Origin: Escherichia coli
GTDB lineage: Bacteria > Pseudomonadota > Gammaproteobacteria > Enterobacterales > Enterobacteriaceae
Assembly (NCBI RefSeq): GCF_050920415.1
Contig: NZ_CP169309.1
Length of the DNA: 64,000 nt
Strand: one strand, 5' to 3'
The position numbers are program-made. This document shows, piece after piece, positions 12,701 to 15,700 of this stretch. How positions within the stretch are numbered: the first letter of the stretch is position 1; every line of letters starts with the position of its first letter.

Positions 12701-15700
12701 AGAAAGCAGCACAATTCGTGGCTTATTCTTTGGTTACTCTCATTCTGATATTGGTTTTGATCGCGGCGGTAAAGGCAATGTCGATAGCTATACCCTGGGG
12801 GCTTATGCCGGTTGGGAGCATCAGAACGGTGCCTATGTTGATGGGGTGGTGAAAGTTGACCGTTTTTCCAACACCATCCATGGCAAGATGAGTAATGGGG
12901 CAACAGCGTTTGGCGATTACAATAGTAACGGCGCGGGTGCTCATGTCGAGAGCGGGTTCCGTTGGGGGGAGGGGTTGTGGAATGTAAGGCCTTATCTGTC
13001 CTTTACCGGCTTTACCACTGATGGTCAGGACTATACGTTATCAAATGGTATGCGAGCGGATGTGGGAAATACCCGCATATTACGCGCTGAAGCGGGAACG
13101 GCGGTAAGCTATCACATGGACCTGCAAAACGGTACGACGCTGGAACCCTGGCTGAAAGCCGCCGTGCGTCAGGAATACGCCGATTCTAACCAGGTGAATG
13201 TTAATGACGACGGCAAATTTAATAATGACGTGGCTGGAACCCGTGGCGTTTATCAGGCTGGGATAAGGTCATCGTTTACCCCGACGTTAAGCGGTCATTT
13301 GTCAGTCAGCTATGGCAATGGCGCGGGGGTAGAATCACCGTGGAATACCCAGGCGGGTGTGGTCTGGACGTTCTGATAACAGAAAATAAACAGGCCGTAA
13401 TGTGTCGCGGTCTGTTTATCAAATTAATCGCAGATATAAAAAAAACCAACCGCAATAGGTTGGTTTTTCTTGGGATTTTTGGTCGCACGAGAGTAGTTTA
13501 ATTGAGTGTATAACTAAATGATTTTAAATAATATTCTTTATTCAACTTTTAAATCGTATAACCAAACGTATAACTAAAATAATTTGCTGAAAAAGTGTAC
13601 AATTTCAGCAATAATTGCCCTAGCGACTATCATCCTGCTCCCCGGATTTTTTCCGGTTAAATGTTAATCAGGCTGCTGGGCTTTGCCTGTTCGGTAGGTG
13701 TAATGATTATCGTAATACTTTTCCCCCAATGGGGTAAAAGCATCAACCGTAACGGAAGTCGTTATGGTTGCCTTGATGATCTGCGTGGTCATTATGACCA
13801 TTCAGCCAATGACCTTAATCAGAGCTTTTCGCTAAAAATGACGTTGGCCACTCGTCCGAAAAGCACAAAATCCCATCGATTTTTAATTAACGGTTAAACC
13901 GTCTTTTTGTCACGTCGTGTCACTGGTTGTCACTCTCCGTCACGATCTCCGATAGCCTGGCTGCAAATTAAACTACGAAAATTTCGTAGTTCTGACTTCT
14001 TTCAGATAGTCGGTTGCCTGGTTACACGAAAAAAATTACTTCCTGCGTTTATCCCGCTTTGTATGTCCGTGCTGAATGCCCCGCAGTGGATCTTCTTTTT
14101 TCAGGTCGATCCCCATGTCCGTTAGTGTTTTTGTGGCGGCGGTTCTTATGGCACAAATCAGGTCTCTTTCCGGTTCCCGGGTTATGGTTGCCTTCCGGAT
14201 ACATGCCGTTCGTCGTTCCGTTACATACTGACGCGCTTCATCACTTGCCGCCTGTTTCAGTAACTCACCCCAGCGATTAGCCGCCCGTCGCCATAAACCT
14301 TTCGCTTCCAGTTCTTCCGCTTTGTCATCATGCACCATAAGCATAATCCCATTGATACCTGTTAAATCTGAATGGTTGGTTTCCGTTCTTTTGATAATTT
14401 CCCTCATAGCTTATTGTATGACAGTACTGTCCCACAATAAGGAATCACACATGAGAATGACCAGGCACAAAAAACAGATTCTTGAACTTTACAAACCTGA
14501 GTATCGCGATTGGGTGCGGGTGGAGGCCGGAGATCCGCCTTTTGATGTTCGTGGTGTGACAGTGCTGCTCTATGGTTCCGAATATCAGCGATATCACATA
14601 GAGGCAACCCGACGAACGTTAAACGCTATGGTAAATGATGGGATCCTGTACCGCGTGAAAGTGCGCGAACCCCGCTTTGATGTGCGTATCGGTAGCGATG
14701 GCGCTCACTGTACGGTAATCCGGTACGGGCTGGGTAAATCAGATGATTAAATCACCAGAATGTAAATTTACATTCTGCCAGCCACCAGCTACAGAACGCA
14801 AATTTGCACTTTGCTGAAATATTAACGGGTTAGGCCAGAGTGCAAATTTGCATTATGCTTTAACTTCAGCAAGTTACCGCCGTAACCGCTCCGGCTTCTT
14901 CCACTGGTACGTTATTTTGGCTTTTTCCCTGTACGTCTGTATCCGGCGACGGTAGGCCAGCATTTCAAGAACGCGGATCCGTATGTCGCGCATATCCGCA
15001 TCATTAAGCTGGATACCATCACGGTGCATCACCTCAGCAACCACACGAACATAATTTTCTGCGGTCACGCTGTCCGGCTGCGTGGCCTGTTCGTCAGCCT
15101 GCTGGTTGATTCCGGCGACGCGGCGGATTAATCGCAGTAGTTCGGTTTCTGTCATTGTGCCCCCATCGCGCTGGTTAAGAAAACAAGCTCAGATTTTTTG
15201 TAAAGAATCTGTCACGCTAAAAGATGTCGAACAAAAAACAACCTTCTCCATCATCTTTTTTGCATCGATTACATTAAAAACAACAGGTTACATACATGAT
15301 GATGATGACGATAAAATCACAAAAATGCGCTTTTTTCCGCGCCCGCCCGCCCCGTGTTCATACCCACCCCACCAGGAGGACCCGCAAAAAAGGCGGCTGG
15401 TGCCGCCTTGTTGTCATAGTGAATCGGTACCGCCTGATTTGACCATACCGCGATAATCCAGAGCGGCCACACCAGCATCAATACGGACTTTCCAGGCCAC
15501 ACCGTCAACGATGAAACCTTCCTGCTGTTCAAGGTAAGGCTCGTCATTGCCATCAAGATAAGCCACCTCGATTGTGTCCGTTCCCTGTGCGGAAAGCATG
15601 TACCATTGTTTTTCGCTGATATCATCAAGGCGGGGATCGACGATAATATCCAGTAGTTTGTGATACGGGTTAAAGATCCCGCTGTTTTTATCTGCCCCGA

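What the first reader, a model, noticed from the sequence alone, without database searches (positions are those of the whole stretch)
14036..14407. PerC-like activator candidate carried by the island
The ORF contains EELEAKGLWRRAANRW, which I recognise from memory as PerC/Pch-type activator motifs encoded on prophages and virulence plasmids. If correct, the island may influence host gene expression in addition to its own. The assignment is from memory only.
Basis: inference. Interest (0 to 1): 0.4.

Follow-up and report, generated by a model that had tools for sequence, protein, structure and literature searches.

The report
PerC-family regulator gene on a phage satellite
The ORF is a genuine, already-annotated PerC-family small regulator gene carried on a 10.8-kb phage-satellite island in E. 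coli, but its closest studied relative does not activate virulence genes, so calling it an "activator" is unproven and the finding is ordinary.

Summary
The ORF and the motif EELEAKGLWRRAANRW are present at 14036-14407 on the minus strand. The family call holds: Pfam PerC (PF06069) scores 81 bits against a cutoff of 22.6 (E 7.7e-23), and RefSeq already names the identical protein "PerC family transcriptional regulator".

Two corrections apply.
- **Start codon.** The true start is M24 (ATG at 14338), giving 100 aa. The 23-codon extension loses its ATG in related islands and evolves like non-coding DNA.
- **Function.** "Activator" is not established. The protein is 47-51% identical to PchE, which does not activate LEE, and only 33-35% identical to the proven activators PerC and PchA. 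Another satellite PerC-like protein, EcCIMP1_025, represses LEE1.

The gene lies at the integrase-distal end of a 10.8-kb PICI-type satellite (int, AlpA, RgdR homologue, primase, protease-capsid fusion) integrated at tRNA-Pro proL. It forms a roughly 1-kb accessory cassette with a divergent 99-aa gene preceded by a 32-bp palindrome. A sister island at the same site lacks the cassette.

PerC homologues on E. coli PICIs have been published since 2018. The verdict is already known and of low interest. The only modestly new point is the recurring pairing with the partner gene.

The parts
14036..14338 (-). PerC-family CDS, 100 aa from M24 (WP_001360810.1). Predicted four-helix protein with a disordered basic C-terminal tail.
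   Evidence: Pfam PF06069 81 bits. PGAP annotation. Homologues start at residue 24. Invariant residues kept. AF2 model pLDDT 83.6. Coding-type substitution pattern.
14339..14407 (-). The 5' leader wrongly included in the 123-aa ORF. Probably untranslated. An SD-like GGGA lies 8 nt before the M24 ATG.
   Evidence: The upstream ATG is lost in L015, L019 and L025, there is no third-position bias, and the non-synonymous to synonymous codon ratio is 13:2 and 8:1. Sequence read.
14410..14441 (.). 32-bp palindrome (16-nt arms, no spacer) in the divergent intergenic region. Candidate operator of the partner gene.
   Evidence: the repeat finder I1. Conserved in L008. Conserved directly upstream of the partner homologue in EcCIMP1, with a symmetric C>T / G>A pair of changes.
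14451..14750 (+). Divergent 99-aa partner gene with no family assignment and a tentative winged-helix-like topology. Appears to co-occur with the PerC-like gene (46 E. coli genomes each).
   Evidence: No Pfam, NCBIfam, PHROG or PADLOC hit. Narrow family. AF2 pLDDT 60.8. Foldseek top hits are all winged-helix proteins but E >= 0.06. 88% identical in L008 and 51% in EcCIMP1. The PerC-like gene alone and the two-gene query each match 46 genomes.
13971..13991 (-). Perfect 10-bp-stem hairpin about 45 nt after the stop codon. Likely a transcription terminator of the PerC-like gene.
   Evidence: the repeat finder I2. RNA fold z = -2.35.
13806..14815 (.). Roughly 1-kb segment absent from a sister island with the same backbone at the same att site. 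It forms the accessory cassette: PerC-like gene, palindrome, partner gene and flanks.
   Evidence: Annotation of L012. Local BLAST segments.
13494..24304 (.). The 10.8-kb PICI-type satellite island between yejO and proL/yejM. Att core copies lie at about 13476-13493 and 24288-24304.
   Evidence: tRNA-Pro(GGG) at 24290-24366. Alignment to the K-12 empty site. Core repeat. 99.8% identical island in strain OkiPb01679.
22830..24089 (-). Tyrosine integrase with an arm-binding domain.
   Evidence: Pfam Phage_integrase, Phage_int_M and Arm-DNA-bind_3.
22109..22315 (-). AlpA-family regulator.
   Evidence: Pfam PF05930 33.3 bits against a cutoff of 21.
20251..20550 (-). DUF4222 protein, 86% identical to RgdR (ECs1581) of O157 OI-51.
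   Evidence: Pfam DUF4222. BLASTP 86% identity. RgdR role from PMC3378721.
18506..20254 (-). P4-family primase (D5_N / DUF5906).
   Evidence: Pfam and NCBIfam TIGR01613.
15414..17303 (-). ClpP-like prohead protease / major capsid protein fusion. This is the PICI capsid-morphogenesis component.
   Evidence: NCBIfam NF045540 890 bits. Pfam. PHROG 133.

Best explanation
Window 14036-14338 (minus strand) encodes a 100-aa member of the PerC family (PF06069). The protein is a small basic four-helix protein with no helix-turn-helix.

It is one half of a roughly 1-kb accessory cassette. The other half is a divergent 99-aa gene preceded by a 32-bp palindrome. The cassette sits at the integrase-distal end of a 10.8-kb AlpA/RgdR-type phage-inducible chromosomal island integrated at tRNA-Pro proL. 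The gene has its own terminator-like hairpin and is separated from the satellite's main operon by the oppositely oriented partner gene. It is therefore most likely expressed as an independent, moron-like unit from the integrated island.

By analogy with Pch, which relieves H-NS/StpA/Hha silencing at LEE1, and with the distantly related ANR proteins, the most likely mode of action is modulation of nucleoid-protein or regulator complexes on host or horizontally acquired genes. Classical sequence-specific activation is less likely. The sign and the targets are unknown. The closest characterised relative, PchE, does not activate LEE and represses curli, biofilm and flagella.

- Shown: family membership, gene boundaries, island anatomy, and the accessory status of the cassette.
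- Inferred: expression in the integrated state, the H-NS or regulator-modulating mechanism, and any effect on host genes.
For: - Family: Pfam PerC 81 bits. PHROG PerC-like families. All invariant family columns are kept: L10, E11, R17, R18, A19, W23 and C46. PGAP uses the same name.
- Relatives: 51% identity to PchE, 40% to EcCIMP1_025, 34% to PerC, 35% to PchA.
- Accessory status: a sister island at the same att site lacks the cassette. The backbone occurs in 143 genomes and the cassette in 46. The cassette also occurs in a different PICI backbone, L008.
- Purifying selection on the core.
- Published mechanism for Pch: PMC4764244. PerC homologues as PICI accessory genes: PMC6092414 and PMC11773190.
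Against: - No consensus sigma-70 promoter was found upstream of the gene, so expression is unproven.
- No experiment exists for this subfamily.
- The H-NS mechanism is shown only for group-1 Pch, which is just 33-35% identical.
- PerC-family genes occur in essentially all of the 80 nearest satellite loci. That could mean a satellite life-cycle role and not a host-directed one.
- The ANR link is only a sub-threshold hit of 18.4 bits against a cutoff of 32.
Confidence: 0.6

Rival explanations
1. It is a true PerC/PchABC-type activator. It switches on the LEE1 (ler) promoter, and hence type III secretion, in LEE-positive hosts. This is what the first reader implied.
For: Same Pfam family, with the N-terminal KAEELEAKGL(W/Y)RRAA-RW motif shared with PerC and PchA. 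Like the activators and unlike acidic PchE, it is basic with a K/R-rich C-terminal tail (pI 9.8). Several carrier genomes are STEC, for example O145:H28. The same island carries an RgdR homologue, and RgdR is a known positive regulator of T3S (PMC3378721).
Against: It is only 33-35% identical to PerC and PchA, which are 47% identical to each other. Its nearest studied relative, PchE, had little LEE effect (PMC6265319). EcCIMP1_025 represses LEE1, and the PerC-like genes of EcCIEDL933 and EcCICFT073 had no LEE1 effect (PMC11773190). The gene also occurs in isolates from bat, rodent, chicken, seawater and an ETEC strain. Their LEE status was not checked.
Confidence: 0.12
2. It serves the satellite and not the host. 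It would be a regulator or anti-silencer that helps de-repress or time expression of the island's own genes, or the helper phage's genes, after induction.
For: All 80 nearest PerC-family loci in the viral-contig collection are PICI-type satellites. 68 carry the gene in a fixed mid-island slot directly after ssb and co-oriented with the operon. Six islands carry two PerC-family genes. Family members also occur in roughly 70-kb phages such as Pollock, FSL SP-076 and Pylas, which I take from my own knowledge to be virulent and where a host-virulence role is implausible.
Against: A sister island with the same backbone and att site lacks any PerC-family gene, so the gene is not essential for that backbone. 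This copy sits outside the main operon, behind an oppositely oriented gene. pchE expression falls on prophage-inducing treatment instead of rising (PMC6265319).
Confidence: 0.2
3. It is an inert passenger: an unexpressed or decaying gene with no current function.
For: No consensus promoter was detected. The island contains at least one pseudogene, Icd-like.
Against: The ORF is intact in 46 genomes at 95-100% identity. There is strong synonymous bias against diverged relatives, 29 synonymous to 16 non-synonymous codons. The M24 ATG and the SD-like element are conserved. All invariant family residues are retained.
Confidence: 0.05

Closest known systems
PchE (ECs1588) of E. coli O157:H7 OI-51 / Sp7 / EcCIEDL933 (group 3 Pch)
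   Same: Closest characterised relative at 51% identity over 78 aa. Same Pfam family, same size class, and also carried on an RgdR/primase-type PICI satellite.
   Different: PchE sits mid-island directly after ssb, in the operon orientation, and has no partner gene. This gene is at the distal end in a divergent two-gene cassette. PchE is acidic (pI 5.7), whereas this protein is basic (pI 9.8) with a K/R-rich tail. The two types coexist in 6 islands.
EcCIMP1_025 (WP_000617443.1), the PerC-family protein of PICI EcCIMP1
   Same: A satellite-borne PerC-family gene near the int-distal end. A homologue of the 99-aa partner (51% identity) with the same palindrome lies 1.1 kb away.
   Different: Only 34-40% identical. 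It is not directly adjacent to the partner gene. It was shown experimentally to repress LEE1 (PMC11773190), whereas nothing has been tested for this protein.
PerC (pEAF/pMAR2 of EPEC) and PchA/B/C (EHEC lambdoid prophages)
   Same: Same Pfam family, the same N-terminal motif and invariant Cys, and a basic charge.
   Different: 33-35% identity. These proteins are carried on a virulence plasmid in the perABC operon or in the late region of a lambdoid prophage, not on a satellite. They are proven LEE1 activators acting by relief of H-NS silencing (PMC4764244).
ANR family (Aar and relatives; NCBIfam NF033650)
   Same: Small helical proteins with a highly conserved cysteine (PMC4038620). There is a weak profile match over residues 6-50 of the 100-aa protein.
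   Different: The score of 18.4 bits is below the cutoff of 32. ANR proteins are 39-80 aa and act as negative regulators of AraC-family activators. This protein scores far better as PerC.

Membership tests
PerC family (Pfam PF06069) | Profile match above Pfam's gathering score covering most of the domain | tested here: met
   81 bits against a cutoff of 22.6, E 7.7e-23, profile positions 1-82 of 90.
PerC family (Pfam PF06069) | Conserved N-terminal motif (A-E-x-L-E-x-x-G-[LF]-[WYF]-R-R-A-A-x-R-W) and invariant cysteine | tested here: met
   All 7 invariant and 6 near-invariant columns of a 54-sequence family alignment are present.
PerC family (Pfam PF06069) | Small (about 90-105 aa) protein whose N-terminus coincides with the start of the domain | tested here: met
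   100 aa from M24. Homologues begin at the equivalent residue.
PerC family (Pfam PF06069) | Direct similarity to the founding member, EPEC PerC | tested here: met
   34% identity over 76 aa, pairwise E 3e-15.
PerC/PchABC functional group (LEE1 activators) | Activates the LEE1 (ler) promoter | not testable with these tools
   This needs a reporter assay. The nearest relatives are negative (PchE) or repress (EcCIMP1_025), per PMC6265319 and PMC11773190.
PerC/PchABC functional group (LEE1 activators) | Close sequence relationship to PerC or PchA-C | tested here: not met
   33-35% identity to PerC and PchA, against 47% between PerC and PchA and 47-51% to PchE.
ANR family (NCBIfam NF033650) | Profile score at or above the curated cutoff | tested here: not met
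   18.4 bits against a cutoff of 32.
Gram-negative PICI (the carrier island) | Integrase plus a specific att site, with a size near 10-15 kb | tested here: met
   Integrase. The att core is the 3' end of tRNA-Pro proL. Size 10.8 kb.
Gram-negative PICI (the carrier island) | AlpA-type regulator and a primase-replicase | tested here: met
   AlpA 33.3 bits. P4-family primase. RgdR homologue at 86% identity.
Gram-negative PICI (the carrier island) | No tail or lysis genes, with a capsid-morphogenesis gene allowed | tested here: met
   The PGAP annotation of the 99.8%-identical island lists none. The only structural gene is the protease/MCP fusion.
Gram-negative PICI (the carrier island) | Induction, replication and transfer by a helper phage | not testable with these tools
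   This needs a helper-phage mobilisation experiment.
Capsid-forming PICI (cf-PICI) | Portal, large terminase and head-tail connector genes | tested here: not met
   None are annotated or detected in the island. Compare EcCIEDL933, which has them.

The most novel reading that the evidence does not exclude
The PerC-like gene and the palindrome-preceded 99-aa (possibly winged-helix) gene could form a self-contained regulatory cassette that moves between E. coli phage satellites. More broadly, PerC-family proteins occur in all 80 nearest satellite loci, in two fixed positions that can coexist. They might therefore be satellite life-cycle factors, for example anti-silencers that free the island or its helper from H-NS, and not virulence regulators. 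On this reading the LEE, curli and flagella effects would be side effects.
Probability: 0.2. Interest if true: 0.45.

Novelty: already known. Interest (0 to 1): 0.15.

Why it matters
As it stands the finding matters little. The gene is already named in RefSeq, and PerC homologues on E. coli PICIs have been reported since 2018.

It would matter modestly if this subfamily proved to alter host virulence or adhesion programmes in the STEC strains that carry it, because phage satellites would then be spreading regulatory switches between pathogens. It would also matter if the near-universal presence of PerC-family genes in these satellites reflected a role in satellite-helper biology.

The practical output here is threefold: a corrected gene model (100 aa, not 123), a warning against reading "activator" from the family name, and the observation that the gene travels with a partner gene and its palindrome.

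Tried and rejected
1. **Long 123-aa gene model.** Rejected in favour of the M24 start.
2. **Lambda-cos-like site in the 98-nt repeats (15311-15408, 17850-17947).** Local alignment scores to the rebuilt lambda cos (14-19) fall within the shuffle range (mean 16.3, maximum 23). The repeats fold as stem-loops followed by a U run.
3. **Rfam scan of the island.** Only the tRNA was found.
4. **GTCAC x4 array as part of the PerC cassette.** Rejected, because the array also occurs near the distal end of many PICIs without the cassette.
5. **Palindrome as the PerC-like gene's operator.** More likely it belongs to the partner gene, because in EcCIMP1 it stays with the partner while the PerC-like gene is 1.1 kb away.
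6. **Defence-system membership of the cassette.** No PADLOC hit.
7. **Solved-structure relative by sequence.** None found, only insignificant uS3 matches at E >= 0.07.
8. **Fold search of the partner protein.** The model was low-confidence (pLDDT 60.8) and no hit was significant, so the winged-helix reading stays tentative.
9. **Plasmid hit H81 as a pEAF locus.** It was an ETEC plasmid with no perABC. Canonical perC was taken from pMAR2 instead.
10. **Porter et al. 2005 (PMC543544).** The paper could not be read. Its results are cited only as reported by PMC11773190 and PMC6092414.
11. **LEE status of the host strain.** Not determined.
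Full report
**Observation**

The ORF listing returns a 123-aa ATG-started ORF at 14036..14407 on the minus strand. 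Its translation contains EELEAKGLWRRAANRW at residues 31-46 (sequence read).

**Family test**

The test does not refute.
- Pfam PF06069 (PerC transcriptional activator) matches at 81 bits, E 7.7e-23. The gathering score is 22.6. The match covers ORF residues 24-106 and profile positions 1-82 of 90.
- Several PHROG families labelled transcriptional activator match as well.
- NCBIfam gives only a sub-threshold hit to the ANR family, 18.4 bits against a cutoff of 32.
- RefSeq's PGAP already names the identical protein (WP_001360810.1) "PerC family transcriptional regulator". The gene is present at 95% or higher nucleotide identity in 46 of 5426 complete E. coli genomes, always on the chromosome.
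- An exhaustive phmmer search of 1.84 billion representative proteins finds 120 relatives at E < 1e-3.
- In a 54-sequence alignment the family has seven invariant columns (L10, E11, R17, R18, A19, W23, C46 in M24 numbering) and six near-invariant ones. This protein keeps all of them.

**Gene model**

- Almost every homologue aligns from query residue 24 to its own residue 1.
- PGAP starts the CDS at M24, which is window 14338.
- In related satellite loci the upstream ATG is ATA (L015, L019, L025). M22 is lost in L008 and L025. The M24 ATG is invariant.
- Against the two most diverged relatives, the 23-codon extension shows no third-position bias. It has 10/7/7 differences by codon position and 13 non-synonymous to 2 synonymous codons in L025, and 8 to 1 in L008. 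The core shows 12/8/37 and 16 to 29 in L025, and 13/9/30 and 20 to 19 in L008.
- The extension therefore evolves as non-coding DNA, and the core evolves as a gene under purifying selection. The CDS is 14036-14338, 100 aa.
- An SD-like GGGA (GGAG in L025) lies 8 nt upstream of the M24 ATG.
- A perfect 10-bp-stem hairpin at 13971-13991 follows the stop codon.
- No consensus sigma-70 promoter was found.

**The island**

A tRNA-Pro(GGG) gene, proL, lies at 24290-24366 on the minus strand. Alignment with the empty K-12 site shows that the 3' end of the tRNA (TTTGGTCGGCACGAGAG, 24288-24304) is duplicated, with a 1-nt deletion, at about 13476-13493. This bounds a 10.8-kb island between yejO and proL/yejM.

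| Feature | Coordinates | Evidence |
|---|---|---|
| Arm-type tyrosine integrase | 22830-24089 | |
| AlpA regulator | 22109-22315 | 33.3 bits, cutoff 21 |
| Icd-like pseudogene | not separately mapped | |
| DUF4222 protein, 86% identical to RgdR/ECs1581 | 20251-20550 | |
| P4-family primase | 18506-20254 | |
| ClpP-like protease / major-capsid fusion | 15414-17303 | NF045540, 890 bits |
| 93-aa protein of unknown function | 14874-15155 |; phrog_1561, unknown function |

There is no portal, terminase, tail or lysis gene. This is the anatomy of a classical Gram-negative phage-inducible chromosomal island with a capsid-morphogenesis gene (PMC6092414, PMC10085698). It is not a cf-PICI such as EcCIEDL933, which carries portal, terminase and connector genes. 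The protease-capsid backbone occurs in 143 of 5426 genomes. Its distal module also occurs joined to other integrase modules.

**The cassette**

The PerC-like gene lies about 540 bp from the int-distal end of the island. It is divergent from a 99-aa gene (14451-14750, plus strand) that has no match in any family library. Between them is a 32-bp palindrome at 14410-14441, with 16-nt arms and no spacer.
- A sister island at the same proL site has the same backbone but lacks both genes. Local BLAST puts the window-specific insert at about 13806-14815.
- The two-gene query and the PerC-like gene alone each match 46 genomes, which suggests the two genes co-occur in E. coli.
- The same pair, with the palindrome, occurs in a different PICI backbone, L008. 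That island runs int, AlpA, the pair, HigBA, TerS and a type I R-M system. The PerC-like protein is 79% identical and the partner 88%.
- In EcCIMP1-type islands a 51%-identical partner homologue keeps the same palindrome directly upstream. A symmetric C>T / G>A pair of changes preserves the dyad. That island's PerC-family gene lies 1.1 kb away.
- The palindrome therefore belongs to the partner gene's control region.
- The partner's AF2 model is weak (pLDDT 60.8). Its topology and its best Foldseek hits (linker histone H1, Fur/PerR and RTP DNA-binding domains) are winged-helix-like, but none is significant, with E >= 0.06. That reading is tentative.

**Place in the family**

| Comparator | Identity |
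|---|---|
| PchE | 51% (BLAST), 47% over the multiple alignment |
| EcCIMP1_025 | 34-40% |
| EPEC PerC | 34% |
| PchA | 33-35% |
| PerC vs PchA (reference pair) | 47% |

A scan of the viral-contig collection with the family motif returned 307 relatives. The best 80 all lie on PICI-type satellites with int, an RgdR homologue, primase and ssb. They fall into two positional classes.
- Twelve loci at 87% identity or higher have the gene at the distal end next to the partner (12 of 12).
- Sixty-eight loci at 42-51% identity (PchE-type) have it directly after ssb, mid-island, without the partner.
- Six islands carry both types. The window's island has only the distal type.

More distant family members occur in temperate phages (SfV, SfII, Stx phages), in roughly 70-kb phages (Pollock, FSL SP-076, Pylas) and on 405 plasmids.

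**Mechanism**

Published work shows the following.
- Pch activates LEE1 only by relieving H-NS/StpA/Hha/YdgT silencing, and it reduces H-NS binding (PMC4764244).
- ANR proteins are three-helix proteins with a conserved cysteine (PMC4038620).
- PchE had little effect on LEE and represses curli and biofilm. Its expression falls on prophage-inducing treatment (PMC6265319).
- EcCIMP1_025 represses LEE1, and the PerC-like genes of EcCIEDL933 and EcCICFT073 had no LEE1 effect (PMC11773190).

The best-supported reading is a small helical modulator of nucleoid-protein or regulator complexes. It is probably expressed as an independent accessory unit from the integrated satellite, with unknown sign and targets. 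I put family membership at about 0.97. I put the accessory, host-directed modulator reading at about 0.6, and a true LEE1 activator at about 0.12.

**Novelty and verdict**

The protein is already in RefSeq under the family name. PerC homologues as accessory genes of E. coli PICIs are published (PMC6092414, 2018; PMC11773190, 2025). The finding is correct but ordinary.

The increments from this work are as follows.
- A corrected start codon.
- Placement of the protein nearer to PchE than to the activators.
- The two positional classes of satellite PerC-family genes.
- The recurring association of the distal class with a palindrome-preceded partner gene.

Noticed in passing
window 15311-15408 and 17850-17947: Two 98-nt direct repeats (79% identical) lie just 3' of the protease/capsid gene and of the 83-aa ORF. 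On the minus strand each begins with a GC-rich stem-loop followed by a U run, then a G-rich segment (ACGGGGCGGGCGGGCGCGG). They are not significantly similar to lambda cos, and their function beyond termination is unknown.
   Followed up: partly
window 13909-13943: Four GTCAC pentamers are spaced exactly 10 bp apart (0 matches expected by chance). The same phased array occurs near the int-distal end of many PICI loci with unrelated integrases, including cf-PICIs without the PerC cassette. It is a conserved satellite-end element of unknown role.
   Followed up: partly
window 14760-14876: A cluster of AT-centred palindromes (ATGTAAATTTACAT, then CGCAAATTTGCA and TGCAAATTTGCA) lies inside a 41-nt tandem repeat (14792-14832 and 14836-14876), between the convergent 99-aa and 93-aa genes. 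Similar motifs are present in the sister island L012.
   Followed up: no
window 20251-20550 (-): The DUF4222 ORF just upstream of the primase is 86% identical to RgdR (ECs1581), an experimentally shown positive regulator of type III secretion from O157 OI-51. The island therefore carries a second candidate host-gene regulator.
   Followed up: partly
L019, L020, L022, L023, L024, L025: Six satellite loci carry two PerC-family genes at once: a PchE-type copy mid-island and the distal cassette type. This argues that the two types are not redundant.
   Followed up: partly
window 13642-21249 versus hits H33-H39: The distal two-thirds of the island, from the PerC cassette through the primase and DUF4222 genes, is about 98% identical in genomes where the match stops short of the integrase end. 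This suggests the module is joined to a different integrase/att module there (modular mosaicism); those islands' integrases were not inspected.
   Followed up: no
window 10782-13376 (+): The yejO autotransporter gene flanking the island is an intact 864-aa ORF here. It is IS5-disrupted in K-12 and frameshifted in the otherwise near-identical strain OkiPb01679.
   Followed up: no
PerC family alignment A2 versus PDB: The family's N-terminal motif weakly resembles a segment of ribosomal protein uS3 (IAxQLERRVMFRRAMKR, residues about 115-136). With E = 0.07 or worse this is probably chance.
   Followed up: no
L008 7029-11072: In the other backbone carrying the cassette, it is followed by HigB/HigA, a small terminase gene and a type I restriction-modification system. 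The cassette therefore sits in the satellite's accessory/defence hotspot.
   Followed up: no
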